Shown here in pieces: positions 1,871-48,682 of a DNA stretch of 64,000 bases. The DNA comes from an uncultured Polyangiaceae bacterium (GTDB lineage: Bacteria; Desulfobacterota; Binatia; UTPRO1), in NCBI GenBank assembly GCA_964631985.1, contig CAZWAX010000001.1:943-64942 (forward strand). The letters run 5' to 3'. The notes below the pieces were generated by a model that saw only the letters and a list, made by a program, of their open reading frames with translations, was not told the DNA's origin and did no database searches. Within the stretch, counting starts at the first letter, position 1, and each line of letters starts with the position of its first letter. The translations under genes were made by a program, and so were the position numbers.

Positions 1871-2806
1871 ATGGTGAAACGCATACCCCTTCGACGATCG
1901 TCGACGTCTCGCATGATCGGCTTCGCGGCCGTGGCCGCCCTGCTCGGAGCGCTCGCCGGCCCCGTGCAGGCCCAGGTGTTCAAGGTCTGCGGCGACGTCG
2001 ACGACAACGACGTCGTCTCGGTCACCGACGGCGTGCAGGTGCTGCGCGCGGCCGCCGGGCTCACCAGCGACTGCACCGACGCGATCTGCGACGTCGACGT
2101 CAGCGGTGCCATCACGGTCACCGACGGCGTCACCATCCTCCGCAAGGCGGCCGGGCTCTCGATCAAGGAGAACTGCATCCCCGACGACGGCCGGATCAAC
2201 CAGCAAGTCGCGTATCTCCTCCAGTTCAGCCAGCCACTCGTCTCCGCCGTGCTGCCGACGATCATCCTCCGACGGAACGAGACGATCGACAACTCCTTCG
2301 AGTGCGACAACGGCGAGGACGGCCTGTACGAGGTCACCTTTCTCGACGGGCAACAAGACAGCTCGTTCTCCGACTGCTTCGTCGACAACGCCGTGATCAA
2401 CGGCGACGTCGAGAACGCCAACGACGACCCGATCCTGGCGATCGAGCTCGGTGACGCGCGCAACGACGATACGATCGGCTTCGAAGGGACCAACGGTGGC
2501 GCCCTCCTCGGCGTGAACATCGAAGGCGGCATCAAATACAGCGGGCGGCTGGACGGGTTACCGTCCTTCGAGCGCTTCGACACCAGCGACTTCCTGTTGG
2601 TCGTGAGCAACCTGCAGGTCGCCGCGACCGGCTATCCCCTCGGCGGCTCGATCTCCTACGAGTTCACCGAGGACTCCGCCGTGCCCGACATCCGCCGCGT
2701 CCGCGTCTTCTTCGACGGCTCGAATCTGGCGCGCGTCGAGGTGACGTTCACCGACGGGGGTTTCAGCTACTACAAGTTCGAGCTGCAGTTCCTCAATTTC
2801 ACCTAG
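1871..2806 (+). CDS. Secreted protein with two dockerin-like Ca-binding repeats
   Basis: Signal peptide MVKRIPLRRSSTSRMIGFAAVAALLGALAGPVQA. Repeats CGDVDDNDVVSVTDGVQVLRAAAGL and CDVDVSGAITVTDGVTILRKAAGL match the dockerin D-x-D-x-D...LR pattern. Confidence 0.7.
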   Translation: MVKRIPLRRSSTSRMIGFAAVAALLGALAGPVQAQVFKVCGDVDDNDVVSVTDGVQVLRAAAGLTSDCTDAICDVDVSGAITVTDGVTILRKAAGLSIKENCIPDDGRINQQVAYLLQFSQPLVSAVLPTIILRRNETIDNSFECDNGEDGLYEVTFLDGQQDSSFSDCFVDNAVINGDVENANDDPILAIELGDARNDDTIGFEGTNGGALLGVNIEGGIKYSGRLDGLPSFERFDTSDFLLVVSNLQVAATGYPLGGSISYEFTEDSAVPDIRRVRVFFDGSNLARVEVTFTDGGFSYYKFELQFLNFT

Positions 2807-24410: not shown

Positions 24411-24616
24411 ACCAGCGGAAAGCAGCGATCGTGCCAGGCGGCGAACCGCGTAGCGAGCATTTCCCGTCGCGGCGATTCGCGGCCCTGAGAATCTCGAGGG
24501 GTTGTCTTCTCATTCGCAACAACACGGCTCGTGGCTGAGCTTGTCCCGAACCAGCCCGCGTTCTGCAGGATTTCCTCGACCTCCGGATCGTCGATCTCTG
24601 CGCGACCCGGAGGGAG

Positions 24617-24662
24617 GATCGAATCGGTTGCGAAAGTGGACGCGCTCGCAACCAATTCGAAC
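24617..24662. repeat. 17-bp imperfect inverted repeat (GATCGAATCGGTTGCGA / TCGCAACCAATTCGAAC, 15 of 17) with a 12-nt loop, at the proximal edge of the A/T-richer island
   Basis: Seen directly. Lies in the non-coding stretch upstream of the DUF2267 gene. Confidence 0.5.
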
Positions 24663-24714
24663 CGCCGCGCAGATTCCGCTTCACTTTTCGCTGCTTGAGA
24701 CGGGGCAGCCGTTT

Positions 24715-24882
24715 CCGTACCAAACCATCGCCGAGCGAGCCCTCCAGCTTCATCGGTTGGGGATGTCCGATAGCTCCATTGCTCGCTCGCTTGGTGTCAA
24801 CGACAAGACGGTCGCCAAGTCGATTCGTTGGATCATAGCGGTGCATACCGGTGCGCATTCAGAGACGCCAGAAGGGGCCTGA
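24715..24882 (+). pseudogene. Isolated HTH fragment resembling a transposase/resolvase N-terminal HTH (remnant)
   Basis: ...YQTIAERALQLHRLGMSDSSIARSLGVNDKTVAKSIRW then stop. It has the HTH_23/IS630-like shape but no catalytic domain follows. Confidence 0.35.
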
Positions 24883-29657: not shown

Positions 29658-30649
29658 TCGCGCACAATCAAGCGAACGGATGGATCGAGCTTCTGAAGAG
29701 ATGCTTCGAGGTCTGCGTACATTGCCCTGACCTCGTCCTGGATGAGAATGGTGTTGCCGGGAGCGTCGGCGTACACGACGATGACTTTCGGCGCATATGG
29801 CCTTCCCTCGTCGCGCTCGAACGCTAGCATCTGCTCGAGAGCCCCAGGCAATCGCGTTGCGAGCGTCCGACGGTACCGCGGAAGGTCGCCCTCAAGAAAT
29901 TTGCCGATGAGAGCTGGCCGACTGGAAGCATCAACAAAGCCGAAAGCGTCGGAAGGCTCGATCTCGATGCGGAGTCTGTAGGATCCCTTGATGTCGCTAA
30001 AGTCGACGGTGGCCGATGTGCCTCCCGAGTTGAGGGCTTCTTCCACGTCAAGGAGAAGCAGCCTGACCGCGTTCGCACCTACCCAGTCGTTCTCGTCGAA
30101 GCGTCGTAGTTCGGGGGCTTCAGTGAGCACGCAGCAAGAACTGCAGAAAAGGGCCGGCTTCGTCACAGCGAGGATCTCAATGTTTTCTCGGATTACCTCA
30201 CTGGCGTCTTGATGGGCGCTCAGGGACTTTACCTCGGCGAGTCCGATTCCTTGCGGCGCCTCAATCTGAAAGTCTGGTCTCTTCCTCTTTTTCTGAGGGG
30301 GAAGGGCAATAGCACTCGAGATTCCGATCTCGTCGCGTAGATGTCTGACGGCGCGGACCTCTGCCAACCACGTACGAATTCGAGCGTCGAACTCGCGCCC
30401 TTGATCGGCGGTCAGGTCAGCAACCAACTCATCCCAGTTCCGGACAAGCTGCGAGGCGGCATCGAGGTTCGCTTCCAGCACGTCCACGCCTACGAACCCG
30501 AGCAGAAGCCTGCGAACAAGTAGATTTCGCAGTGGCGGTACGTTGGAGTCGGTGATTCGTTGCTTCAATGCGTGGCCGATGGTGGACTGAGCGATGGAGC
30601 CGAGCATCGCATGGACGCGAACGGAAAGTTCTTCGGGCGTCATCTCCAA
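29654..30649 (-). CDS. Hypothetical 331-aa protein with a possible PD-(D/E)xK-like motif (RPDFQIE...GLAEVK); first gene of a coupled pair
   Basis: ORF directly abuts the PrimPol remnant. Basic KKRKR patch then PD...EVK spacing typical of restriction-endonuclease-like folds. This rests on motifs only. Confidence 0.55.
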   Translation of the reverse strand: MEMTPEELSVRVHAMLGSIAQSTIGHALKQRITDSNVPPLRNLLVRRLLLGFVGVDVLEANLDAASQLVRNWDELVADLTADQGREFDARIRTWLAEVRAVRHLRDEIGISSAIALPPQKKRKRPDFQIEAPQGIGLAEVKSLSAHQDASEVIRENIEILAVTKPALFCSSCCVLTEAPELRRFDENDWVGANAVRLLLLDVEEALNSGGTSATVDFSDIKGSYRLRIEIEPSDAFGFVDASSRPALIGKFLEGDLPRYRRTLATRLPGALEQMLAFERDEGRPYAPKVIVVYADAPGNTILIQDEVRAMYADLEASLQKLDPSVRLIVRD

Positions 30650-31283
30650 CCAGTAGTAGTCGGAGCTGCGGCGCCTTGTCGATCGAGTTGATTCGCGAGC
30701 GCCGCCATCGGCTCGTCGAGGGCCGAGGCTGCTGCGCCTTCACGCTCGACGGCGACGAAGCACGGTCGAGGACATCGGGGGCCCACATCGACAACGTCGA
30801 TCCGGGTGTAAGGTAGGCGGTATGCGGGGGCTCGCGGTGATCGCTGGCCTCGGGCTTGGTCGGCTGTCGTATACGGCACGCTATTGGCCCTGATCGCGGA
30901 ACCAAGGGCGAGGCGCACGGGTGCCGACCGCCGCCGCCGGTCGCGACGGTGAATGTCGCGGGCAACGTCCCGTGCTCGGGCTCGAAGGCAGCGAGGCTCG
31001 CGTCACCGCCGTGAGGCGGGTCCACGTCGAGGACGAGGAACCCCTAGGTCGTGCCGGTCGAGGTGCCGATGCTCGCGTGCGGCCACTCCGCCCACCAGCC
31101 GCGAATCGTGGCGGCATTGGTGGCGGCCTTCGCCGGCCAGCCCTTGAGCCTGGGGTGCTTGCCGGCGTCCGCGCAAACCTGGCCCTTCCGGCAGCTGCAG
31201 GTGCCTGCCTCGGTGATCTCGCAGACCGGCAAGACGCGCCAACCGCGGGCGGCGTAGCCGAGTGCAACCTCCAACAGCTCCAT
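30650..31283 (-). pseudogene. Bifunctional DNA primase/polymerase (PrimPol, N-terminal domain) gene disrupted by an in-frame TAG and downstream frame loss
   Basis: MELLEVALGYAARGWRVLPVCE...KHPRLKGWPAKAATNAATIRGWWAEWPHASIGTSTGTT-TAG(31044-31046)-GFLVLDVDPPHGGDASLAAFEPEHGTLPATFTVATGGGGRH matches the PrimPol N-domain consensus. Only about 125 codons are recognisable. Confidence 0.55.
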
Positions 31284-37961: not shown

Positions 37962-38303
37962 CTACTTGGTGACGGCGATCCGTATGCGCTGCTCGATGCT
38001 CGCTGCGTCCGAGGACTGATCGATCGCGATGATCACATCGTCGGCGCCGCGCACGACGACCGACACGGACTGCTGCGGCGACGCGTCGCGCGCGGCGAGC
38101 AGACGCCGGGCGATCCCGGCGAGGCAGGCCGCGAAATGCTGAGCGCCCACGGCGATGGTGACGACGTCGGCGAGCTGCTCCAGATAGGAGTCGAGGATTG
38201 TGTCAGTTGCGTTGTCCAACGTCCGGCGCGATCCGTCCTCCGTATCGTAGGCCAAATCCTTCGCGAGTTTGGGCGGCGCGACGATCTCGAAGACGATGTC
38301 CAT
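37962..38303 (-). CDS. Small 113-aa hypothetical protein (possible Roadblock/LC7-like or STAS-like fold); second gene of the STAND-linked operon
   Basis: ATG at 38303 lies 85 nt downstream of the STAND gene. ...SVSVVVRGADDVIIAIDQSSD... is the only weak fold hint. Confidence 0.45.
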   Translation of the reverse strand: MDIVFEIVAPPKLAKDLAYDTEDGSRRTLDNATDTILDSYLEQLADVVTIAVGAQHFAACLAGIARRLLAARDASPQQSVSVVVRGADDVIIAIDQSSDAASIEQRIRIAVTK

Positions 38304-38388: not shown

Positions 38389-41300
38389 TCAAAGACTCCC
38401 AGCGTCAGGATCGGGCGTCATGATAGGCCACGGTCGACCGGAGGCAAGATCGGGATGGCGCGGCCCGGCTTCCGGTGAGCCGTACTCATCCCAGATCCGG
38501 TCTACTTGGTTCAGGCAACGCGCGGCTGCGTCCAACGCCCCACCGTCTGTCGTCAGTGCAAGAAGTTTCTCGCGAAGTTCAACGGCAGGGACGGGAACAA
38601 TCGTGAACGCCCCCTTCAAATTCTCGGAAGGTACATGCTGGGTGACCACGCGCCCGATCGCCCGCCGCGAGATGAGAGAGCGCCAACCTCCCTCAAAGCT
38701 GAGTAGAAGTAGTACGCCTTCGGCATCGGGATTCTCCACGACGGCCTCGGCGAGCATTGCTAGGCCCGGCGTTGATGCGCCGTTGCTGAGGAACCCATAG
38801 ACGTGGGCACGCAGCGCAGGATGTGCGTCGAATAACTCGCCGATGTGGCCGGCCATGTGCCAGCGATCGAGGTTCCCGTCCGCAAAGGAACCGCCTGCAG
38901 CCAAGTCCACAAAGCGGCGCGCGGCGGAGAGGGTTCTCCGGCGCGTGACGGCGTCGCGCCACACGTGACTGTCATAGAAGGCGGGACAGGCTTCAGCAAA
39001 AGCAAAGAGCGCGTTTTCAGCGTCAACACCAGGTGCTTCGCCGAAGGCACGGATCATTTCCTCCAAACGATCGGGCCTTCGTTGCTCCTCCGGCAGGGTC
39101 TGAACAACAGTGAGCGCCTCAGCTGGAAAATTCGTGAACGGCAGTAGTCGCAGCCATTCACTGACTTCGTAGCCATCACTCAGGATCCAGCTTTGGGTTC
39201 TGCCAGCCTCCATGACCTCAGCGAGGCCTGTCTTCACGACGCCGATGTCGACGATGTGACCGGACAGCACTTGGTTCAGAAGTAGTGCGGCCCGTAAGCG
39301 GCGTGGTGCGATGGCGATCAGACTTTGAACCGTCGCATCACGCTGGCCATGCGGCAGCCGCGATGCCACGACGCCAAGCGCGAGGCCGAGCTTTTTCCGC
39401 TCTTCCGGCACGCCGTCGGCGATCAGTGGCTCAAGCGCTGCGAAGATTGTCTCCGCTTCCACCGAAGTCGCTGAAGGATTGGCGGCGCGAGCGGCTCTTT
39501 TCTCTTCCACGCGTGAGAAATCCGGACCGCCGAAAACCCGCCTGCTGTTCGGCGGATCGTTCGCCTTCTGCCATCTGGCCGCGAGGACGTGCGCGGCAGC
39601 TTCGCCGAAATGGTCGTCGATAAGATACTCTCGCATCAAAGCGGCTGTCTCCGGAGCGTCGATGGACAGGAACGCGTGCTGGTACTCATTCGTATGCGGT
39701 GTGATGGCTTCGGTCGCGGCTTCGCTGTGGGCTCGCCCACCGGCTGCTTGCGCTTCGGCACGGAAGGCGCGATAGTGGCGGAGGTTGTCGTCCAGCAAGC
39801 GCCTCAACAATGGCAGCAGCGCGATAGAGGGGGCCTGGCTTGCTAGCGTTGCGATGCTAGCCGTCTGCCAGCGCTTCGCGGTACCGGAAGCCAGCATGCG
39901 GTCGCCCCACTCCTGGGCGATTGCCTGAATAGTCGCACGTGAATCAGCGTCGAACGGTCTGCCGTGATCGCCCTCCCCACTTGGATGACGCGAGAGAAGC
40001 CCTGCCAAGCGCGCCATTTGGTCGTTATCGGCTTGCAGAGAGCGGGCATGGATGGCGGCAACGAGACTGGCGCCGCGGGCATGCGCGAGCCGACGCAAAA
40101 GGGTGTGGTAGCGGTCACTTGCGGCTTGGTCGTATGTACCGTCCACATTCAGCCGCGCCCGTGCTTCGTTCAGTGCCTCGATCATGCGGCCGACGGCCAA
40201 CGGTCCGAGCGCGGAAGCCGCGGCTTCTCCGCGGTCATGCGGCCGGGTGGCGTCCATCAGCGCAAGTTCCAGTAGTGCGTCGTCTTCGAGACTGAAACAG
40301 GCTGCAGCGAGAATATCATCGGCTCCGTAGAATAAGGTTCGCCCGGTGCGCACGCGGGTGAGGAGGCCGCTCGCGACAGCACGGGGATAACGCTGGCGCG
40401 CTTCGTAGACGAGATGAACCGCCGCGTCCCGCCCCTCGGTTTCCATCGACCCGATGAAGTCGGCCAGCTCTAAAGCCCGGTCTTCGGCAAAATCCGAGTA
40501 CACGATCGAGTGAAGCCGGTCGTAATCCGAAACTCCTGTCGCGATCTCCCGCTCGCGCGCAGCGGCGAGGCGCTCCTTGACGCGCTCGTCGGGAACGTTG
40601 TGGACGAACCTGTTGCGCGCAACCAGGTCGATGGTCTCGTCGCCAGCGTACCGCAGCACGTCGGCGACGTGTCGATCCGCGCCCCGAAAAGCCAGCGCCT
40701 CAACCGTCGAGACTTGAACTTCAGTCGCGGGATCATCGCTTGCGATAGCGGTCGCGAGATCGAGACCGTCGATGCCGCTGTTGGATGCCATCTCGTGCAG
40801 CAGGACGGTCCGCACCTTGGCCGACAGCCCACAGATCCTCGTCACGGCATCACTCCCGAGGATTGACGGTCGGAACCGGCTGCAGTTGCGCAGCGCCTTG
40901 AGACTCGTCTGATCGTCCTCGTGCGTGATGAGCGGCCAGACCGCGTCAAGGAACTCAGGGCGTCCCGACGCGAGCATAAAACGCAATGCGCGATCCACCT
41001 TGCCCGGCGTATGCCAGCGAGCGACGAGCCCCCGGATTGTTGGGGCGATGGGCGCCCACACTTCCTCCGTCGCCCTGAAGATCATCTCGGCCGCGAGAAT
41101 GGGATCGACTTCGAACGCCGAGAGAATGGCCTTGCCGCACACGGCCTGCTGGTGCGCATCGCTGCGCGCCATACGTTCCACCGCGAAGAGAATGGCTTCT
41201 TCCCATATGGGAAGGTTGAATACTTCAGCCTTCAGCGCCTCGCGGCTCCTCGGATCATCGGCCGCCGCGGTAGTCCGGCGCTCTACGGAGTGAGAGGCAT

Positions 41301-42729
41301 ACCACTCCTGAAACTGCTGGTGCTGGAAAGAGTAGCCCAGCGTGCCGCCCGTGCGGATCAGAACATGATTGCTGGCGAGCACGTCCAGCACGTCGTCCGG
41401 CTGGGACGGGATAGTGATCTGCCCGTCCCCGATCAGCGTTGCCTGGGTTTGAGAGACGGTCCGCCGGGCGTTCGTGTCGGCGATAGACGTGTTCTGTGTC
41501 CGCGTGGCGAACACGGCGAGACACTCCAGATGATCCTGCTGGAAACCATGCACAACGTCGCGCAGCGTCTCGGCGCGACGGGCATCAGTTTCGTGCACAG
41601 TCACGAAGTGCCGCAGGAGTTCCTCCTTGGTCGTTGGGAAGGGCGCGCCTTCAGGAAGGGAGAGCAGTGCGGTGAGATAGAGTGGGATCGTTACGAGCTC
41701 GCGGACACCAGGCGTGCGCCAAGCCTGATCGACGATCCTCAGGCCTGCTTCGCCGCGCATCGCGGCGGCGATCTGCGTTTGCTGCTTTTGGTTGAGCGGC
41801 AGGAGATCGACGCGCATCCCGACGAAAGGAACGTCGAGGGCGTGCTTGCGGGTCGAGACGATGAAGCCGAGCTCAGGTAGCTCCGCCATCAGGCGATCGA
41901 CCTGTACGCGCGCTCGCGTCCGCCCGTCCGGACTCAATTCGTTCCAGCCGTCGAGCAGCAGGACAACACCGGGTTTGGCGGCGACTGCACGGAAGTCGTC
42001 TTCCGATATGGCCTGGAACCCCTGACGAGTGAGGATGGACCCTAGCAGTGACAACGTTTGCGTGGCCCAATCGGCGAGCGGGATGATGATGGGCGTGCCT
42101 CCGGCGTCGGCGATGAGGGCTTGGGCGATCTGGAATAGTGTCGTCGTCTTTCCTGTGCCGGGTCCGGCGACGAGGATTAGATCGTCGAGCGACGTGACGA
42201 CGCGCGCGAGCGCGGTTGTCGTCGCAGGCTGACCAAAGCCTTCTACCTCCAGCGTGAGCGCTACGGCACTGGATGGCCATTTGGTTGTGCGGCGGAAAAC
42301 AGAGAGATCCGCCTCAGCAGCGGCGCGAAGACGATCCGCCGGTTGCCCGACGGCAATAGGCAGAGGCCCACGGGACGCTTCGTTCTGCAACACGCGGCGT
42401 CGAGCGTCGTCTTCCGCTAGCTTCTTCCATTCGCGTAGACGCTCGATGGTGAATTCTGGATCCTTATCGTCGATAGCCTTGCCGTGATTGCGACACATCC
42501 AGATGCCGTTGCTTGCGGAACGGCGTTCCGCGGATGACATGTTTGCGTCACCGCGGGGGCTGCGGTCGGATTCCACGGCGCCGATGATGTGCGCCGCCGT
42601 GCCGAGATTGATTTCACCGCCGACGGTCAGCGCACGACAAGATGGATAGGAGCAAAGCCAGCCCGCGCGCTTAGCGATCTGGGTCTTTATCCGGTCTGTG
42701 AACTCGTCTCTGTTTCTGTTTCCTGGCAT
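38389..42729 (-). CDS. STAND-class NTPase: N-terminal HNH-like nuclease motif, NACHT NTPase module and long C-terminal HEAT/ARM-like repeats (antiviral-STAND/Avs-like architecture)
   Basis: HNH-like segment: C-x2-C (CSYPSC)...AAHII...N-x4-C-x2-H (NGIWMCRNH). Walker A: LILVAGPGTGKTTTL. NACHT-type Walker B: VVLLLDGWNEL. Roughly 900 aa of helical repeats follow. Confidence 0.8.
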   Translation of the reverse strand: MPGNRNRDEFTDRIKTQIAKRAGWLCSYPSCRALTVGGEINLGTAAHIIGAVESDRSPRGDANMSSAERRSASNGIWMCRNHGKAIDDKDPEFTIERLREWKKLAEDDARRRVLQNEASRGPLPIAVGQPADRLRAAAEADLSVFRRTTKWPSSAVALTLEVEGFGQPATTTALARVVTSLDDLILVAGPGTGKTTTLFQIAQALIADAGGTPIIIPLADWATQTLSLLGSILTRQGFQAISEDDFRAVAAKPGVVLLLDGWNELSPDGRTRARVQVDRLMAELPELGFIVSTRKHALDVPFVGMRVDLLPLNQKQQTQIAAAMRGEAGLRIVDQAWRTPGVRELVTIPLYLTALLSLPEGAPFPTTKEELLRHFVTVHETDARRAETLRDVVHGFQQDHLECLAVFATRTQNTSIADTNARRTVSQTQATLIGDGQITIPSQPDDVLDVLASNHVLIRTGGTLGYSFQHQQFQEWYASHSVERRTTAAADDPRSREALKAEVFNLPIWEEAILFAVERMARSDAHQQAVCGKAILSAFEVDPILAAEMIFRATEEVWAPIAPTIRGLVARWHTPGKVDRALRFMLASGRPEFLDAVWPLITHEDDQTSLKALRNCSRFRPSILGSDAVTRICGLSAKVRTVLLHEMASNSGIDGLDLATAIASDDPATEVQVSTVEALAFRGADRHVADVLRYAGDETIDLVARNRFVHNVPDERVKERLAAAREREIATGVSDYDRLHSIVYSDFAEDRALELADFIGSMETEGRDAAVHLVYEARQRYPRAVASGLLTRVRTGRTLFYGADDILAAACFSLEDDALLELALMDATRPHDRGEAAASALGPLAVGRMIEALNEARARLNVDGTYDQAASDRYHTLLRRLAHARGASLVAAIHARSLQADNDQMARLAGLLSRHPSGEGDHGRPFDADSRATIQAIAQEWGDRMLASGTAKRWQTASIATLASQAPSIALLPLLRRLLDDNLRHYRAFRAEAQAAGGRAHSEAATEAITPHTNEYQHAFLSIDAPETAALMREYLIDDHFGEAAAHVLAARWQKANDPPNSRRVFGGPDFSRVEEKRAARAANPSATSVEAETIFAALEPLIADGVPEERKKLGLALGVVASRLPHGQRDATVQSLIAIAPRRLRAALLLNQVLSGHIVDIGVVKTGLAEVMEAGRTQSWILSDGYEVSEWLRLLPFTNFPAEALTVVQTLPEEQRRPDRLEEMIRAFGEAPGVDAENALFAFAEACPAFYDSHVWRDAVTRRRTLSAARRFVDLAAGGSFADGNLDRWHMAGHIGELFDAHPALRAHVYGFLSNGASTPGLAMLAEAVVENPDAEGVLLLLSFEGGWRSLISRRAIGRVVTQHVPSENLKGAFTIVPVPAVELREKLLALTTDGGALDAAARCLNQVDRIWDEYGSPEAGPRHPDLASGRPWPIMTPDPDAGSL

Positions 42730-42870
42730 CGGGCAGCGCGCTACTCAAAGGTTCGCCCGGCGACCCGGGCGGGGGCGACTATACCAGTTCGGGATGTAGG
42801 CTCGAATGGAGAGCTTCACACGCTTCGAACTTCTCGATTGATCTACAGGGTGATCAGGCAAACGCGATGA

Positions 42871-43059
42871 CGGTACCGCCTGGCCTATCACCGCATGAAG
42901 GCCACCGAGGAGGCGCCGCATCAGCTACTGGTCGTGGGCGTTCGCTACGGGGACAAACTGTCGCGCGACGAGGGTCGGTGGCGCATCACCGACCGGATCG
43001 TTCACATGGACTGGCAGAGCCGGCACCCGGTGGCGGTTCCGGCGCTGTGCAGAGACTGA
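42871..43059 (+). pseudogene. C-terminal fragment of an NTF2-like/SnoaL-like protein
   Basis: ...HQLLVVGVRYGDKLSRDEGRWRITDRIVHMDWQ has the characteristic SnoaL/DUF4440 C-terminus. An in-frame stop lies immediately upstream, so no N-terminal half exists. Confidence 0.4.
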
Positions 43060-43147
43060 GCGACGTCGCGACGCAACCAAGCGTGGGGACGTTGCTCCCG
43101 TGGGATCGATGCTGCCGCGCGCCTTCATGGGGCTCTCCCTGTCCGCT

Positions 43148-43208
43148 GCCATCAACGGTCGACGAGTTCGCCTGCCGATACGGGGCCGGCGAGGGACGTT
43201 GTGGAATC
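43148..43208 (+). repeat. Direct repeat copy A (about 60 nt), downstream of the 701-aa gene
   Basis: GCCATCAACGGTCGACGAGTTCGCCTGCC...CGAGGGACGTTGTGGAATC. The first 29 nt match copy B at 26 of 29. Confidence 0.5.
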
Positions 43209-43323
43209 ACGACCGGTGGATCTGCGCATGCGAGCGCTCGCCTCTGTTGCGTGGTTCTGACCGGCGACAGCCTCCGGGCTCCGCTCACTCTAGAGTTGTC
43301 TAGAAGTCACGCCCTCGCCGCGA

Positions 43324-45429
43324 CTAACCTTCTTCTGCGCACGACGGACGTGGCGTAAGATAGACCGCAACAGGTGACCACTTGGTGATGATCTGCGTGC
43401 AGTCATCGTCCAAGACTTTCGAGCACGGGCACCCCCGATACGGCGTCGTGCACAGCGAACACTCACTGTCGTCGACGATCATAGCTACCGCAGGAACCAC
43501 GCATCCGGCTCGCGCGGCTTCGGCAGGGTAGGTCTTGTCGTCGGGGTCGGGTAGGTACTCGACGAGGACGTTCTTCCCGACGACCTTGAGATCGTACAAC
43601 CCACGTTCGAGCTCGAGGCGGTCTATCTCAAGGACTCTGTTAAGGGTCAGGCACTCGAGTGCATCCGGTCTCGGCTCATCCGAGTCGCCATCGCCAACGA
43701 GCTTCTTGAGGGCGTCGCCCAATCGCACGGGATCGCCGAGCAGCGGGGCTACGACTGTAGACCACTGAGGCAAGAACTCGGCCACGTCGTCGAGGTGTCC
43801 GCACACGGAAACAATCAAAGCCGAGCAGCCAATGGGATAGGCGATCGAAAATCCGATCAAGCGATCTGACCGGCGCACATACCGCCGGACGAGTTCCTGC
43901 AGAGCCTCTATGGTCGTCGCTACCGCGGAGACCTCTGGATGCCATACCGTTCCGAAGTTCACGTCCAGATCCTCGATCTTTACCAGCAGGACGTCAGCGT
44001 TCAACTCGATCCGCATCTCGTGACGCGCGACCGCCTTTACGAGTTCCAACGACTCCGCCTCCACGAATGGACCTCCGCCATCGCCGATCTCCAATTTGCG
44101 GGCTGGCAAGATGTGCAAGCGGTCGCGCGCGAGAATCCGCTCGAGTGGAAGGAAACTCATGCCTGCTCGTATTCCTCCCCCCCGCGCAATGCGGAACGAG
44201 GCCGGAGAATCCTTACTCGGGGCATCACCAGCTTCTGGCGCTGGGATGGGGCCGAACTGCGCGGCCGGTGGTGCGCCCAGATATTCGCCGACGAGATGGT
44301 TGTCGCGGAAGTAATCGGAGAGCAGACGTTTCCAGAGCGCGACAGGGATGTCTCCGTCGACGCGCCACAGCTTCAGATAGTCTGGCGCGCGGTTCGCCTT
44401 CGAGAGGTCTTTGCCTCGTCGATCTGTGAGGCCGTCCTCATCGTAGATCCGCACTGCCCCATCGAAGTGATCGAGGTTGCCGTTCGGTGCGACAATCGAA
44501 TGTGCGTACCGACACGCGTATCGGACTCCATCCACTCCGAACGTCGAGGCCGCGCGGACTTCCTCCACGGCGAAGATCCGCTCTCCATCGCGGTCGCCCC
44601 ATCGGAAGTCTGTGAATTCAATTCCGCTGTAGAAGCGTTCGGCGTCGGTCGCCCGGTGTTGCGACACCCCGGCGGGAATGGTCGACAGGTCGTCGTTGAA
44701 CTCAGGACCCCACCAATACTGTTGTTCCATGATCGGCCTGTAGCTCTCGGCGAGGCCAACCATGTCGGGATCAAGAGCGACACGTGGACGAAGAGCAGCG
44801 GGCACGCCCGCGAGTGCGGAGAGAAAAGGGGCATTCAGGGAGTTAACTGGCACACCGCTCCGGCGAAGATCGCGGTGGGCGAAAAGGGCTAGGGGTCCGT
44901 GTCTGTATACCCCCGGACCAATGACGTCCACCTTGCTCAGATCGATGAGTCCGTCGCCGTCCAACTCCTTGAAGACCGCGGCGGCCACCCTCGTCGCAAT
45001 CCCGATATTGAACACGGCCACGCATTCCGCGACCAACAGCTGTAGGTCCCCACTAAGGCCGGCAGCGAGGAGCTTCAGCAGGGTCGCAAATTCGTCCTGC
45101 CGGGCGACGATCTTCTTCCCGCGAAACTCGGTCAATGCACCGCCGAGGTTTGCCCGCTCCTCAGGCGAATCAGCGACAAGCATCTGAGCGGTGAGACGAC
45201 AGACGCTCGGCGCAAAAAACACCGCCGTGGGATATGTCCAGCCGAATGGCCGACTCATATCGTGAGAGACGAGGCCCGGAATCCCCGCCTCCCAGTTCTC
45301 CTGCAGCGCCTGCACCAGCGCACCGGGAGAGAATCGCGTGTTCGCCCGCGTAAGTTGGTCGGTGGCGAGGGTCGCGATCAACTTCATGGCAGCCGAGGTC
45401 ATACCAGACGGGCGCGAACGATTCCGCAT
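43324..45429 (-). CDS. Hypothetical 701-aa protein with a C-terminal Cys cluster (SECSLCTTPYRGCPCS), flanked by direct repeats
   Basis: Uninterrupted ORF in the A/T-richer island. No recognised domain. The start is uncertain because no SD precedes any of three N-terminal ATGs. Confidence 0.5.
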   Translation of the reverse strand: MRNRSRPSGMTSAAMKLIATLATDQLTRANTRFSPGALVQALQENWEAGIPGLVSHDMSRPFGWTYPTAVFFAPSVCRLTAQMLVADSPEERANLGGALTEFRGKKIVARQDEFATLLKLLAAGLSGDLQLLVAECVAVFNIGIATRVAAAVFKELDGDGLIDLSKVDVIGPGVYRHGPLALFAHRDLRRSGVPVNSLNAPFLSALAGVPAALRPRVALDPDMVGLAESYRPIMEQQYWWGPEFNDDLSTIPAGVSQHRATDAERFYSGIEFTDFRWGDRDGERIFAVEEVRAASTFGVDGVRYACRYAHSIVAPNGNLDHFDGAVRIYDEDGLTDRRGKDLSKANRAPDYLKLWRVDGDIPVALWKRLLSDYFRDNHLVGEYLGAPPAAQFGPIPAPEAGDAPSKDSPASFRIARGGGIRAGMSFLPLERILARDRLHILPARKLEIGDGGGPFVEAESLELVKAVARHEMRIELNADVLLVKIEDLDVNFGTVWHPEVSAVATTIEALQELVRRYVRRSDRLIGFSIAYPIGCSALIVSVCGHLDDVAEFLPQWSTVVAPLLGDPVRLGDALKKLVGDGDSDEPRPDALECLTLNRVLEIDRLELERGLYDLKVVGKNVLVEYLPDPDDKTYPAEAARAGCVVPAVAMIVDDSECSLCTTPYRGCPCSKVLDDDCTQIITKWSPVAVYLTPRPSCAEEG

Positions 45430-45713
45430 GCGCGCGGCAACGGTAGAGAAGCCTCCAGCGCCGGACGTGATCTTGGCTGGCTGCGAGGCAGCTCACCTGT
45501 CCTGTCGTTCCGATCCTCCAACTTCCGGATGCCAGATGGGACCGCCACAACGGATGAGACACCAGCTAGGGAGTTCGAACGCGGTACTGAGGTCGCAGCC
45601 GACCCCAGCACCTCGAAAACGGTTGCCTTGACGCAGAGGTGGGCCAACGACGTTTCGAGATCGCCGGGTTGGCCTTCCGCGAAGAGGTCCTAGAGGCTCG
45701 TTTCGTGTGCAAG

Positions 45714-45773
45714 GCCATCAACGGTTGACGGTTTCGCCTGCCTCCAAGGGTTCTCGAGGGACATTGCGGGATC
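45714..45773 (+). repeat. Direct repeat copy B (about 60 nt), upstream of the 701-aa gene
   Basis: GCCATCAACGGTTGACGGTTTCGCCTGCC...CGAGGGACATTGCGGGATC. Same orientation as copy A. Confidence 0.5.
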
Positions 45774-45854
45774 TTGGTGAGACGCGGCCACCGCGATCAT
45801 GTGCGCGATTTCCCTGGTCGTGCACGCTTCTTCGACAGGGCGGTGCTAGCTGCG

Positions 45855-45886
45855 TGAGTGGGTTCAAATCCCGGCGGGTTTGCACC
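45855..45886 (+). tRNA. tRNA-derived 3' fragment (T-arm GGGTTCAAATCCC plus acceptor-like tail); not a complete tRNA gene. Possible attachment-site remnant at the island boundary
   Basis: GTGGGTTCAAATCCCGGCGGGTTTGCACC. No D-arm or anticodon-arm partner sequence can be found upstream. Confidence 0.4.
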
Positions 45887-46145
45887 CTATTATTCCCGCA
45901 ATTCCCAATCCTTGTGAACGTAAAGTGGGCTGCGTAGCCCGCGGGATTGCCGGGGGTTTCCTCATCCGCGAACGATCTTCAGCATCGGCTGGTAGCGCCT
46001 TGCGGCTTCTTCTGGAAGCTCATCGAAGGTGGGGGCCCGACTAGCGTGACGCTCGCATCATTGCTGCTCTCCGGGTTGTCAGGTCAGAAGTGTTTCTTCG
46101 CTCGCCTGCCCACCGATCCTCGTAAGGAGAGACTCGCCGTAGCGG

Positions 46146-48020
46146 TCAGGGCTCGATGTTCCAGATGCCCATCATCCCGATGTCCTCGTGCTCGACGATG
46201 TGGCAGTGAAACACGGTCTTCCCCGCGTGATCCATGACCGGAACGAGCAGCGTGATGCTGCCGCCCTTGGGGACGATGACCGTGTCCTTGAGCCCGGGCA
46301 CGCGGGTGTAGAGGTCGGCGTAAGTCGCGAACGCGGGATCGGGACCGTTGGCCGACAGAACCTGCGCGGAGTTGACGTGCTGGTGCCAGGGGTGGTCCAT
46401 CCCGGTCTGGTTCACTATCTCCCAGACCTCGTAGGTGCCCACCTTCGAGTCGTGTTGGTACGCGCTCACGGTGCCATCGGCCATCTCGTCGAAGCTCACG
46501 CCGTTGATGGTTCCCCGGCCCATGAACATGCCGAGGACGAACCGCGTCCGCGGCAACGAGCCCGCGTCGATGGTGAGCCGCCTCGCCGCGGGGTCTACCT
46601 GGGCCGGGAGGACGTCGCCCATTTCCGCTCCTGCGTCTTCGAGCGTGAGGAGCGTCACCTGTGCCGAGGGAGCGCCTCCGAATCCGGGCATGCCGCCCAT
46701 CATCCCCATGCCTCCGCGGTCGTACGGCAGCGCGAGCAGCCGGAAGTTGCCGGCAGCGGGGGACGCCTGGACGAGCAAGTCGAGCCGCTCGGCGGGCGCC
46801 ACCAGGATCTCGCTTACGGAGTACGGCCGGTCGAGCAGACCTCCGTCGGTACCGATGACGTTGAGGGAATGCCCCTCGAGGCTCAGCCGGTAGAAGCGCG
46901 CCGTGCTGGCGTTGAAGATGCGCCACCGCTGCACTTGCCCGGGCCGGATCGCGAGAACGGGGTTCACCTGGCCGTTCACCATCACCAAGTTGCCCTCCTT
47001 CCCCATCACGTAATCCAGGATCGAGTCGTAGGGGGCCGGGCCTCCGCCCGAGAGCGAAATATCCTTGAGCACGAGGAGGTGGGTCTCGTACGCAGCCAGC
47101 GGGCTACCCGGCTCGTCGGCGACGTCGATGGGGCCGATCATGCCGCCCCAGATCTGCTCGGCGACCGCGCCGTGCTGATGCGGGTGGTAGAGCCCCATCG
47201 AGCCAGCGGGTTGCAGCGAAAGGTCGTACTCGTAGTCGAGGCTTCCTCCGCCGGCAGCGACCGACCTGAAGACGTCGTCCCCGGGCGTACCGTTCGGGTT
47301 GGTTGCCGGCGTGACATGCAGGCCGTGCGCGTGAAGATTCGTCACGAACCGCGGATGGCCGAGGAGGTTCGTGGCCCCACTGGCGGGGAGAGCGTTCGTG
47401 AAGTGCAGCCGCAGCAGGTCACCGCGCCTCGCCTGGATGACGGGGGCCACGAAGCCGCCGCCGTAGGTCAGGAACGTGGCCGTGGAGCCGCCGAGGTCGT
47501 CGGCGGCAGTTCGGGCCTCGATCGTGACGCCAACGACGTTGCCGTTCCGTGTGCTCGGCGCCACCGGGGGATCAGCGAATGCCGATCCTGGGGGCGGATC
47601 GGACGGCGGATGGCCCCTCCCCGCGTAGGCATGTGGCGCGTCACAATCTCCGCCCGGGCCAAAGAACGAGCCATCTCTGACGTAGCAACATGACTGAGGG
47701 CACTGGCCCTTTACCAGAAGACCGGCCGCGGCGCGCAAGCTGTTGACCCCGTCGGTGACGGTCATATGCCCGTCACCGTTCATGTCGCACGACGCCATGT
47801 AGTAGACGTCCGCGCCATCGCGCAGCTCGCAGGTGCTTGAGAGACCCGCGGCTGCTCGCAGCATCTGCACCCCGTCCGTGACGGTGACGGCTTGCCGCGA
47901 GTCGCCGCTGGTATGCCCGCACGCGGGCATCATGAAGGATCCTGGGTGGTGCGCTGCCGCTGATGTGGCCAACGTGGCACCGATCAGCACCGTGAACCAC
48001 GAAAGGACTCTCTTTTTCAT
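46146..48020 (-). CDS. Multicopper oxidase (three-domain laccase/CueO-like) with two N-terminal dockerin-like repeats
   Basis: GAGGAG RBS, signal peptide MKKRVLSWFTVLIGATLATSAAA. Cu-ligand motifs HAHGLH, HPHQHG, HPWHQH and HCHIVEHEDIGMMG. N-terminal TVTDGVQMLRAAAGL and CDMNGDGHMTVTDGVNSLRAAAGL repeats. Confidence 0.85.
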   Translation of the reverse strand: MKKRVLSWFTVLIGATLATSAAAHHPGSFMMPACGHTSGDSRQAVTVTDGVQMLRAAAGLSSTCELRDGADVYYMASCDMNGDGHMTVTDGVNSLRAAAGLLVKGQCPQSCCYVRDGSFFGPGGDCDAPHAYAGRGHPPSDPPPGSAFADPPVAPSTRNGNVVGVTIEARTAADDLGGSTATFLTYGGGFVAPVIQARRGDLLRLHFTNALPASGATNLLGHPRFVTNLHAHGLHVTPATNPNGTPGDDVFRSVAAGGGSLDYEYDLSLQPAGSMGLYHPHQHGAVAEQIWGGMIGPIDVADEPGSPLAAYETHLLVLKDISLSGGGPAPYDSILDYVMGKEGNLVMVNGQVNPVLAIRPGQVQRWRIFNASTARFYRLSLEGHSLNVIGTDGGLLDRPYSVSEILVAPAERLDLLVQASPAAGNFRLLALPYDRGGMGMMGGMPGFGGAPSAQVTLLTLEDAGAEMGDVLPAQVDPAARRLTIDAGSLPRTRFVLGMFMGRGTINGVSFDEMADGTVSAYQHDSKVGTYEVWEIVNQTGMDHPWHQHVNSAQVLSANGPDPAFATYADLYTRVPGLKDTVIVPKGGSITLLVPVMDHAGKTVFHCHIVEHEDIGMMGIWNIEP

Positions 48021-48682
48021 TGCTCCTCTATCCTCGACAATCAATCACGTGGTGAACGGCAACGCCCCTGAGCCCAGAGTCCCTTCCTGCCGGTTCGACA
48101 ATCTCGTCAGATTCGCGCTGCGTGGCTCGACATTCCTTGCGCCAACTGCTTCGGGGTGTATTCCCAGTGATGCGATTCCCAGTCGTGGCAACGAGAACGG
48201 GGCGCCGAGCCCCCCCCATGCGAATGCTCTGAAAGCTGGGCGCCACCTATGCCGCGATAGCACCCCGGCGGCGTCCCTGAGAGGCCCGGTGAGGCTTCCG
48301 CACTATGGCGATATTTCAGCGACTCGTCGCGTGGATCATCGACCAGATGCCCAGAGCATTGGTCGAACTCCAACGTGACTAGCTCTTCCCCATCCGCCAG
48401 CTTCACAATTCGCGTAACCGGCATGCCCAATCAAAGAAGCAAGCGTCATGCCCATCGAAACAATACGTACAATTGAATCGCGGCCCAAAGCTTCTCATGC
48501 AAATTTCGCGACGTCGGCTTCGCGCGCGCGGTCGGCATCGAGGGCGATTTCCGAAAGTCACGAATCCGATGACGCATCCGTGAGAATCCAGTCGTTCACG
48601 GCCCTGACATTGCACGCTTGAAGGGCGGCACGCCGTTCGCTTCTCGACTGTAGGTGGCTTCTCGAAAGGAGGTGAGAACTGG

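What the first reader, a model, noticed from the sequence alone, without database searches (positions are those of the whole stretch)
43148..45773. About 60-nt imperfect direct repeats flanking a single 701-aa orphan gene
Both repeat copies lie in the same orientation immediately downstream and upstream of ORF 43324..45429. Copy A is at 43148-43208 and copy B at 45714-45773. Their first 29 nt are 26 of 29 identical (GCCATCAACGGT[C/T]GACG[AG/GT]TTCGCCTGCC), and a second shared block is CGAGGGAC[G/A]TTG[T/C]GG. Copy B sits about 80 nt from the tRNA-like fragment. A gene bracketed by direct repeats suggests cassette-like insertion or excision, or repeated att sites of nested integrations. The enclosed protein has a C-terminal Cys cluster and no known domain.
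Basis: seen in the sequence. Interest (0 to 1): 0.6.

Follow-up and report, generated by a model that had tools for sequence, protein, structure and literature searches.

The report
Recombination-scar repeats around a mobile gene
Two real but diverged ~78-base direct repeats bracket one gene in a patchwork of horizontally acquired genes; they are most likely an old recombination scar, not an active cassette, and the gene is not an orphan but belongs to a large uncharacterised family often carried on integrating elements.

Summary
43131-43208 and 45695-45773 are same-orientation copies: 57 of 80 columns overall, 26/29 and 16/19 in two blocks, split by a divergent 12/13-nt spacer. This is far above chance. 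There are only two copies in the window and none in three public collections.

"Orphan" is wrong. The gene (best read as 43324..45402, 692 aa) belongs to a family of about 1,400 clusters at 50% identity. It has no Pfam, NCBIfam, PADLOC or PHROG match. Its AlphaFold model is confident (pLDDT 90) and has no convincing PDB neighbour.

Homologues have no conserved partner gene. They often sit beside tyrosine or serine recombinases, tRNA genes and defence genes.

The surroundings are a mosaic. They hold a bNACHT-type defence gene, a 5'-truncated SnoaL_4 remnant, a weak tRNA-like remnant, and gene modules with sharp homology edges.

Flanking repeats are not enriched around family members (1/58 against 3/190 in controls). 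The window holds no recognisable recombinase, and attC criteria fail.

Best reading (about 0.45): an immobilised att-like scar of module insertion or accretion. Rivals are a shared cis-element, a low-copy intergenic repeat, or decayed duplicated sequence.

Interest is modest. The protein family is the more interesting part.

The parts
43131..43208 (+). It lies 72 nt after the SnoaL_4 remnant and 116 nt beyond the stop of the 692-aa gene.
45695..45773 (+). It lies 285-312 nt upstream of the 692-aa gene's start and 87 nt left of the T-arm-like 13-mer.
43324..45402 (-). CDS of 692 aa; the ORF can be extended to the ATG at 45429 to give 701 aa. It belongs to a large uncharacterised family of about 690 aa. 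The N-terminal ~375 aa are conserved, and there is a C-terminal Cys4 cluster.
42895..43059 (+). 5'-truncated remnant of a SnoaL_4 (NTF2-like) gene. It matches only the last 26 positions of the domain model.
   Evidence: PF13577, model positions 100-125 of 126, E 6.7e-4, below the gathering score
45799..45883 (+). Weak tRNA-like remnant. It holds the T-arm-like GGGTTCAAATCCC at 45860-45872 and forms only a poor cloverleaf.
   Evidence: ARAGORN at -ps80 only; negative; unique in the window
38389..42729 (-). Left neighbour: a 1446-aa bacterial NACHT/STAND protein with an N-terminal HNH-type endonuclease-like region and a C-terminal NCAB2 domain. The exchanged module spans 42740-38404.
46146..48044 (-). 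Right neighbour: a multicopper oxidase with host-like codon composition (GC3 0.84). The exchanged module spans 48075-46142.
45889..45918 (-). The only sigma-70-like promoter match in 42700-46200 (TTCACA-18-AATAAT). It points towards the 692-aa gene, so copy B would lie in a long 5' leader.
   Evidence: a consensus match only: 1 found against 0.6 expected

Best explanation
The two repeats are relics of the recombination event or events that placed the 2.5-kb single-gene module between a SnoaL_4-type gene and a multicopper-oxidase gene. This happened at the edge of a horizontally acquired, defence-rich block. Functionally they are att-like boundary repeats of a decayed element that has lost any recombinase, comparable to a cis-mobilizable element (CIME) or to one unit of a tandem accretion. 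They have since diverged to about 71-75% identity and are probably no longer active.

The two well-kept blocks separated by a scrambled spacer would be the former protein-binding and crossover boxes. The enclosed gene is cargo. It is a stand-alone accessory protein, plausibly anti-phage or anti-mobile-element. It has a conserved N-terminal enzyme-like domain and a C-terminal zinc-ribbon-like Cys cluster.

Shown here: the repeat, its copy number, the mosaic context, and the family's mobility. Inferred: the recombination origin, the loss of activity, and the protein's role.
For: The repeat is statistically real and has only two copies, 2.5 kb apart, with none in the other 61 kb. Its mismatches are clustered: 9 of 15 fall in one 13-column window (permutation p 0.003). 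That gives two conserved boxes, as expected for a bipartite protein-binding site rather than uniform decay.

The setting is a patchwork:
- The NACHT gene shares 79% DNA identity with L096 only over 42740-38404.
- The oxidase shares 92% DNA identity with L093 only over 48075-46142, and its flanks there are unrelated.
- A 5'-truncated SnoaL_4 remnant lies 72 nt left of copy A.
- A tRNA-like remnant lies 87 nt right of copy B.

Codon composition agrees. GC3 is 0.70 for the 692-aa and NACHT genes, against 0.82-0.90 for core-like genes and 0.84 for the oxidase. The compositional edge therefore falls in the intergenic region that holds copy B.

Family members are mobile cargo:
- They have no conserved neighbour.
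- Among 148 neighbouring ORFs there are 6 tyrosine integrases, 5 large serine recombinases and 2 Drt4-type reverse transcriptases.
- In L054 the gene lies in a 7.2-kb island bounded by a 15-nt repeat of the 3' end of tRNA-Ser.
- In L070/L071 the order is tRNA-Pro, family gene, integrase.

The CIME and accretion concept is documented in PMC5704250.
Against: tblastn with four recombinases from homologue loci found no match in the window, and no recombinase domain appeared among the window ORFs scanned against Pfam.

The repeat is not tRNA-derived, and similarity does not extend to a tRNA-like segment next to copy A.

Identity is only 71-75%, so any event is old, or the two sites were never identical.

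Flanking repeats are not a property of the family: 1 of 58 homologue loci against 3 of 190 shifted controls.

No empty site, hybrid site or circular junction could be examined. The closest relatives of the flanking genes are not syntenic, and the source genome is absent from the searchable DNA collections.
Confidence: 0.45

Rival explanations
1. The repeat is a shared cis-acting element read on the minus strand. It could be an operator-type DNA site or a leader/UTR RNA stem. One copy sits upstream of each of two neighbouring minus-strand genes, copy B before the 692-aa gene and copy A before the NACHT gene, and coordinates their expression.
For: Each copy lies upstream of a minus-strand defence-type gene. 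The NACHT module's conserved DNA begins only 11 nt before its ATG, so that gene depends on local upstream sequence or read-through.

The block/spacer/block conservation is non-random (p 0.003). Block 1 holds a 5-1-5 palindrome, TCAAC-G-GTTGA, which is perfect in copy B (read directly).

On the minus strand an 8-bp stem, CCACAACG/CGUUGAUGG, is kept in both copies, with two substitutions that become G-U pairs. All 34 pair cells are paired. The only promoter-like site would put copy B in a 5' leader.
Against: Folding energies are no better than shuffles (z -0.7 to +1.2), and the central stem of copy A is lost in copy B.

With two sequences the covariation is not significant: 108 of 500 shuffles do as well.

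Distances to the downstream start codons differ (about 270-290 nt against about 400 nt), and a gene remnant lies between copy A and the NACHT start.

The sub-motifs are not enriched elsewhere in the window. No such element precedes the closest homologues of either gene. There is no Rfam match.
Confidence: 0.2
2. The two copies belong to a low-copy dispersed intergenic repeat family of this genome (REP-like, or a remnant of a small non-autonomous element). They flank the gene by coincidence.
For: Repeats of similar strength flank about 1.6% of arbitrary 2-kb segments in comparable contigs, and one other position in this window. Other family loci carry unrelated local repeats (L016, L078). The rest of the genome could not be searched.
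Against: There is no third copy in 64 kb, on either strand, by profile search or by tiled Smith-Waterman alignment. There are no matches in the genome, metagenome or viral collections. The element lacks the strong hairpin typical of REP elements and has no terminal inverted repeats.
Confidence: 0.15
3. The copies are decayed fragments of duplicated sequence with no present function, for example remnants of two paralogous coding regions or of a local segmental duplication later interrupted by gene replacement.
For: Gene remnants are demonstrably present next to copy A (SnoaL_4). In one reading frame both copies read PSTVD[E/G]FAC ... EG[R/H]CGI, and 4 of the 6 block substitutions fall at third codon positions (my reading).
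Against: The codon-position pattern is not significant (about p 0.1 before correcting for choice of frame). A 1-nt indel separates the blocks. No ORF across either copy matches any Pfam family. Similarity is confined to about 78 nt, with no extension either way.
Confidence: 0.15
4. The gene is an integron-type cassette and the repeats are attC sites, making a small cluster of attC sites that lacks an integrase.
For: Each copy has outer AAC...GTT-type inverted segments about 55 nt apart (CCATCAACG ... CGTTGTGG in copy A). This is within the attC size range and is arranged as ORF followed by site (read).
Against: The R''/R' consensus (RYYYAAC / GTTRRRY) fails on both strands beyond the AAC/GTT triplets. 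Copy B has ATT (plus strand) or AAT (minus strand) in place of one triplet. Sequence is conserved while the hairpin is not, which is the reverse of attC behaviour. There are only two sites and no integron integrase or other tyrosine recombinase match in the window. The attC criteria are recalled from my own knowledge.
Confidence: 0.03

Closest known systems
Cis-mobilizable elements (CIMEs) and tandem accretion of genomic islands (ICESt1/ICESt3-type; reviewed in PMC5704250)
   Same: A short stretch of cargo DNA with no integrase, bracketed by same-orientation att-like repeats. It sits next to other acquired modules at what looks like an island edge with a tRNA-like remnant.
   Different: In CIMEs the repeats are recognisable attL/attR sites that contain the 3' end of the target gene and match the att sites of a known integrase. 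Here the repeat is not tRNA- or gene-derived, is only 71-75% identical between copies, and no cognate integrase is known. Excision has not been tested.
tRNA-linked genomic islands carrying homologues of the same gene (L054 at tRNA-Ser; L070/L071 at tRNA-Pro with a tyrosine integrase)
   Same: The same protein family appears as cargo close to a tRNA gene or island end. L054 shows a bona fide 15-nt tRNA 3'-end direct repeat bounding the island.
   Different: In the window there is no intact tRNA and no integrase. The repeat lies beside the tRNA-like remnant, not within it.
Integron gene cassettes and attC sites
   Same: A single promoter-less-looking ORF followed by an imperfectly palindromic site of about 55-60 nt. 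The sites on either side of the ORF are similar to each other.
   Different: The R''/R' consensus is not met. The hairpin is not conserved between copies. There is no integrase and there are only two sites.
Bacterial NLR-related (bNACHT) defence genes (Kibby et al., bioRxiv 10.1101/2022.07.19.500537), as context only
   Same: The adjacent 1446-aa gene has NACHT and NCAB2 domains and an endonuclease-like N-terminus. It travels as a single-gene module among many phyla, and this marks the locus as defence-island-like.
   Different: The 692-aa protein itself has no NACHT or other known defence domain. Its pairing with NACHT is not conserved in other loci.

Membership tests
Integron cassette / attC site | R'' (RYYYAAC) and R' (GTTRRRY) boxes at the two ends of the site | tested here: not met
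   Copy A has CATCAAC...GTTGTGG on the plus strand and CCACAAC...GTTGATG on the minus strand. Copy B has ATT or AAT in place of one triplet (sequence). The consensus itself is from my own knowledge.
Integron cassette / attC site | Hairpin structure conserved while sequence varies | tested here: not met
   Fold z-scores are -0.7 to +1.2. The central TTCGCC/GGCGAG stem of copy A is lost in copy B. Sequence is conserved more than structure.
Integron cassette / attC site | An integron integrase nearby, or an array of several attC sites | tested here: not met
   No tyrosine recombinase match in the window. Only two copies are present.
attL/attR of a tRNA-targeting integrative island | The direct repeat consists of the 3' part of a tRNA gene | tested here: not met
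   The repeat has no tRNA or Rfam similarity. The T-arm-like 13-mer lies 87 nt outside copy B, and no counterpart is detectable beside copy A.
attL/attR of a tRNA-targeting integrative island | An intact tRNA gene at one end and an integrase gene inside the element | tested here: not met
   ARAGORN finds no tRNA gene in 64 kb. No integrase match. Only a poor tRNA-like cloverleaf appears at lowered threshold.
Cis-mobilizable element (CIME) | Cargo without integration or transfer genes, flanked by retained att-type direct repeats | tested here: inconclusive
   Direct repeats flank a single non-recombinase gene. Whether the repeats are att sites of any integrase cannot be told from this sequence.
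Cis-mobilizable element (CIME) | Excision or mobilisation in trans by a related element | not testable with these tools
   This needs read-level junction analysis or PCR for the deletion and circle junctions.
Dispersed intergenic repeat (REP-like) family | Many copies scattered through intergenic regions of the genome | tested here: inconclusive
   Only two copies in 64 kb and none in the public collections. The rest of the source genome was not available.
Insertion sequence / MITE | Terminal inverted repeats with a short target-site duplication, and a transposase for an autonomous element | tested here: not met
   No inverted repeat pairs the two boundaries. The enclosed protein has no transposase domain.
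Known anti-phage defence protein families (PADLOC-DB v2) | A significant match of the 692-aa protein to a defence-system model | tested here: not met
   0 families at E<=0.01. It also has no Pfam, NCBIfam or PHROG family.
HK97-type prohead protease (S78), a lead from the N-terminal motif GxPxLxxHDxxRPIGW | Sequence or fold similarity to the protease family | tested here: not met

The most novel reading that the evidence does not exclude
The ~690-aa family (about 1,400 clusters at 50% identity, a confident model with no solved structural neighbour, and invariant His-Asp, Asp/Glu and Arg positions plus a Cys4 cluster) is a new single-gene anti-phage or anti-mobile-element system. It travels as a minimal cassette at the edges of integrative islands. 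The bipartite 78-nt repeats are then the recombination sites of a still-unrecognised trans-acting recombinase that shuffles such single-gene modules in defence islands.
Probability: 0.12. Interest if true: 0.7.

Novelty: new member of a known kind. Interest (0 to 1): 0.33.

Why it matters
As a repeat, it is one more example of the scars left when accessory genes are shuffled into island edges. It is useful mainly for marking module boundaries.

The enclosed gene has more value. It belongs to a large, phylogenetically wide family of about 690 aa with no annotation in any library tested and no convincing solved structural neighbour. The family is repeatedly found beside recombinases, tRNA genes and defence genes such as bNACHT, Drt4 and Schlafen/AlbA-type proteins. 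That makes it a reasonable candidate for experimental screening as a new defence or conflict gene.

The sharp, gene-sized homology edges of the neighbouring NACHT and oxidase modules also illustrate single-gene exchange, whose mechanism is poorly understood.

Tried and rejected
1. A chance match is rejected by the shuffles and the window self-comparison.

2. A structured RNA or known RNA family is not supported. There is no Rfam hit. Fold energies equal those of shuffles. The consensus stem on the minus strand is compatible with both copies but not significant with two sequences.

3. A third copy, or extension of the repeat into the flanks, was not found. One weak partial match sits directly left of copy B (45643-45696, E 0.69) and is not significant.

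4. Copies elsewhere were not found: zero hits for the core pattern in genome, metagenome and viral contigs. The window's own copies were not found either, so the source genome is not in those collections.

5. The idea that flanking repeats are a hallmark of the gene family is rejected: 1/58 loci against 3/190 controls.

6. A strain variant at 42762, suggested by contig L002, is rejected. The odd 23 nt are an Illumina adapter.

7. The empty-site search through orthologues of the flanking genes failed. The 92%-identical oxidase (L093) and the 75%-identical NACHT protein (L096) sit in unrelated neighbourhoods.

8. A function for the protein could not be assigned:
- Pfam, NCBIfam, PADLOC and PHROGs are all negative.
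- The PDB profile search gave only E 0.06.
- Foldseek against the PDB gave no hit below E 0.1.
- BFVD gave one unnamed 181-aa viral protein (E 3.7e-6).
- The afdb50 library was not available.

9. A prohead-protease-like N-terminus, recalled from memory, is not supported.

10. A coding origin for the repeat is suggested by third-position substitutions but is not significant.

11. Exact-protein look-ups for the 701-aa ORF, the NACHT ORF and the AraC ORF found no record.
Full report
**1. The observation**

- The repeat finder returns the 29-nt block (43148-43176 / 45714-45742, 26/29 identical) and the 19-nt block (43190-43208 / 45755-45773, 16/19).
- Their start-to-start spacings are 2566 and 2565, so a 1-nt indel lies between the blocks.
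- Smith-Waterman alignment of the two whole intergenic regions extends the match to 43131-43208 vs 45695-45773. The score is 32, against 12.6 +/- 1.5 (maximum 19) in 300 dinucleotide-preserving shuffles.
- In a self-comparison of the 64-kb window it is the second strongest non-self match (E 2.4e-5). The other matches are mostly GC-rich matches in the first 21 kb.
- Pattern searches with up to 3 mismatches, a profile search (nhmmer) and tiled alignments on both strands find exactly two copies.
- Similarity does not extend left or right of the 78 nt.
- The mismatches are not spread evenly: 9 of the 15 core mismatches lie in one 13-column window (permutation p 0.003). The repeat is therefore two conserved boxes around a scrambled 12/13-nt spacer.

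**2. The local map**

On the minus strand, from right to left, the region holds:
- a multicopper oxidase (46146..48044);
- a 716-nt gap that contains copy B;
- the gene in question;
- a 594-nt gap that contains copy A;
- a 1446-aa NACHT/STAND protein (38389..42729).

The NACHT protein has a C-terminal NCAB2 domain and an N-terminus that matches endonuclease effectors of defence systems. It is a bacterial NLR-related defence-type gene (family described in bioRxiv 10.1101/2022.07.19.500537).

Between the NACHT start and copy A, on the plus strand, lies a 54-codon ORF. It matches only the last 26 positions of the SnoaL_4 model (E 6.7e-4), so it is a 5'-truncated gene remnant.

The 'tRNA-like fragment' is weak:
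- ARAGORN finds no tRNA in the window, and Rfam finds nothing even at E<=10.
- Only at 80% threshold does ARAGORN draw a poor 85-nt cloverleaf at 45799-45883.
- The 13-mer GGGTTCAAATCCC is T-arm-like, and the 29-mer that contains it occurs only once in the window.

**3. The gene is not an orphan**

- The word-indexed search gave 143 homologues, most of them 680-700 aa. They include a 100% identical 692-aa call that starts at the tenth codon of the 701-codon ORF.
- A profile search of 1.84 billion cluster representatives gave 1,424 clusters at E<=1e-3 and 516 at E<=1e-30, mostly full length.
- The 47-sequence alignment has invariant H47-D48, D148, R180-R181, D211, E226, E280-E281, H301, H312, D314, K344, D349 and K358.
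- It also has a C-terminal Cys cluster, with C648, C651 and C658 invariant and C660 nearly invariant.
- More distant relatives, and those on viral contigs, share only the first ~375 residues.
- No Pfam, NCBIfam, PADLOC or PHROG family matches.

The AlphaFold2 model is confident (pLDDT 90.1, pTM 0.88), but it has no convincing solved neighbour:
- Foldseek against the PDB gives nothing below E 0.1.
- The PDB sequence-profile search gives nothing below E 0.06.
- BFVD gives one unnamed 181-aa viral protein.
- The afdb50 library was unavailable.

**4. How the family travels**

- In 80 metagenomic and 8 viral loci there is no conserved partner gene.
- Among 148 ORFs within two genes of a family member, the most frequent Pfam families are Phage_integrase (6), Resolvase/Recombinase (5) and HTH_3 (4). 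There are also two Drt4-type defence reverse transcriptases, a HipA and an ISL3 transposase.
- One close homologue (54% identical) sits beside a Schlafen/AlbA_2 protein and an HTH-M78 peptidase pair.
- In L054 the gene lies in a 7.2-kb segment bounded by a 15-nt repeat of the 3' end of tRNA-Ser.
- In L070/L071 the order is tRNA-Pro, family gene, tyrosine integrase.
- The family is rare on plasmids and phages: only distant partial hits.

The family is thus stand-alone cargo of integrative elements and defence-type neighbourhoods.

**5. Are flanking repeats a property of the gene?**

No. I applied the same flank-versus-flank alignment to 58 homologue loci. One has z>5 (L016, a 41-nt repeat). Of 190 positions shifted by 3-5 kb in the same loci, 3 have z>5. 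In the window itself, 2 of 120 scanned positions do, this finding being one of them. L078 has an unrelated 120-nt repeat around a 5.3-kb block. The repeat profile finds nothing near any homologue. The window's repeat is therefore a local feature, not a family signature.

**6. The surroundings are a mosaic**

- The NACHT gene is 79% identical in DNA to L096 over exactly 42740-38404, from 11 nt before the ATG to within 15 nt of the end of the stop codon. Its neighbours in L096 are DarT/Macro and others.
- The oxidase is 92% identical to L093 over 48075-46142, with unrelated flanks.
- GC3 is 0.70 for the 692-aa and NACHT genes, 0.82-0.90 for core-like genes in the first 22 kb, and 0.84 for the oxidase. 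Overall GC drops from about 0.69 to about 0.62 near 24 kb.
- The compositional edge between acquired and host-like DNA therefore falls in the gap that holds copy B and the tRNA-like remnant.
- tblastn with four recombinases from homologue loci finds nothing in the window.
- The only related trace is an HTH-like remnant at 24.7-24.9 kb beside a 15-bp inverted repeat, conserved with L094.

**7. Explanation**

The best-supported reading is that the repeats are the diverged boundary sites of a past insertion or accretion event. That event placed the 2.5-kb module at the island edge, in the manner of a decayed element that has kept att-like repeats but lost its recombinase (CIME and tandem accretion; PMC5704250).

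In favour:
- the two-copy, tightly local distribution;
- the bipartite conservation;
- the gene remnants on either side;
- the sharp module edges;
- the compositional boundary;
- the family's record as island cargo.

Against:
- no recognisable recombinase in the window;
- the repeat is not tRNA-derived;
- identity is only 71-75%;
- there is no enrichment across the family;
- no empty site or junction could be examined.

I put this reading at about 0.45.

**8. Rivals**

- A shared cis-element for the two downstream minus-strand genes (about 0.2). The geometry fits, block 1 holds a palindrome, and an 8-bp minus-strand stem is kept through two G-U-compatible transitions. However, the fold statistics, motif enrichment and comparative checks are all negative.
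- A low-copy dispersed repeat (about 0.15). This cannot be excluded without the rest of the genome.
- Decayed duplicated, possibly once-coding, sequence (about 0.15). The only hint is a third-position bias that is not significant.
- An integron attC reading (about 0.03). It fails the consensus, structure-conservation, integrase and array criteria.

**9. Artefacts checked**

- The Logan contig L002 seemed to diverge from the window at 42762. Its last 23 nt are an Illumina adapter.
- Both Logan contigs end at window position 46184, inside the oxidase gene. I did not pursue this.

**10. Verdict**

- The 'cassette/att' interpretation is partly supported, as a relic rather than an active system.
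- 'Orphan' is refuted.
- The repeat itself is ordinary.
- The enclosed protein family is large, unannotated, structurally unmatched and island-borne, and is the part worth follow-up.

Noticed in passing
window 24580-24663 and 24767-24852 (compare L094 2923-3008 and 3109-3194): Two short blocks are 87% and 77% identical to a locus whose oxidase gene is only 79% identical. The first block holds a 15-bp inverted repeat (TCGAATCGGTTGCGA / TCGCAACCAATTCGA). The second encodes an HTH-like peptide (weak HTH_23 match, E 0.0028). The blocks lie where GC drops from about 0.66 to 0.61 and have no Rfam hit. They may be a recombinase or transposase remnant marking the left edge of the acquired block.
   Followed up: partly
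window 38404-42740 and 46142-48075: The NACHT and multicopper-oxidase genes share 79% and 92% DNA identity with loci L096 and L093. The identity covers the gene body only, breaking within about 5-30 nt of the start and stop codons, and the neighbours there are unrelated. This indicates gene-sized module exchange.
   Followed up: partly
window 42895-43059 (+): A 5'-truncated SnoaL_4 (NTF2-like) gene remnant, of which only the last ~26 domain positions survive. It abuts the upstream region of the NACHT gene.
   Followed up: yes
window 37962-38303 (-) and 30429-31025 (-): The 113-aa ORF just downstream of the NACHT gene has a weak EACC1 (effector-associated constant component) match (E 0.005). 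Another ORF has a weak Prim-Pol match (E 0.005), and the Logan gene call at the same place also lists Prim-Pol. Both hint that the 24-46 kb stretch is a conflict-system or mobile-element block.
   Followed up: no
window 43289-43304: The palindromic pair of XbaI-type hexamers TCTAGAGTTGTCTAGA starts 20 nt beyond the stop codon of the 692-aa gene. It lies at the same offset from copy A as the T-arm-like segment lies from copy B, but there is no significant similarity between the two.
   Followed up: partly
L054 3763-3777 and 10996-11010; L070 5629-5666 and 5821-5896: In L054 a homologue lies in a 7.2-kb island bounded by a 15-nt repeat of the 3' end of tRNA-Ser. In L070/L071 the order is tRNA-Pro, homologue, tyrosine integrase, and the first 38 nt of the tRNA are duplicated 192 nt upstream.
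   Followed up: partly
L078 399-517 and 5781-5902; L016 5801-5841 and 8215-8255: Unrelated direct repeats flank homologues in two other loci. One is a 120-nt repeat that appears to hold three hairpins (my reading of the sequence), around a 5.3-kb block that also encodes a C5-methyltransferase-like protein. The other is a 41-nt repeat tight around the gene.
   Followed up: partly
L002 3424-3446: The contig ends in the Illumina adapter AGATCGGAAGAGCACACGTCTGA. This mimics a strain breakpoint next to the NACHT start.
   Followed up: yes
window 1992-2158: The strongest internal repeat of the window: 2088-2158 vs 1992-2062, 76% identical over 71 nt, tandem-like and inside long ORFs.
   Followed up: no
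window 45643-45696: A weak partial third match to the repeat profile lies directly left of copy B (nhmmer E 0.69). It is not significant, but if real it would make copy B a tandem pair.
   Followed up: partly
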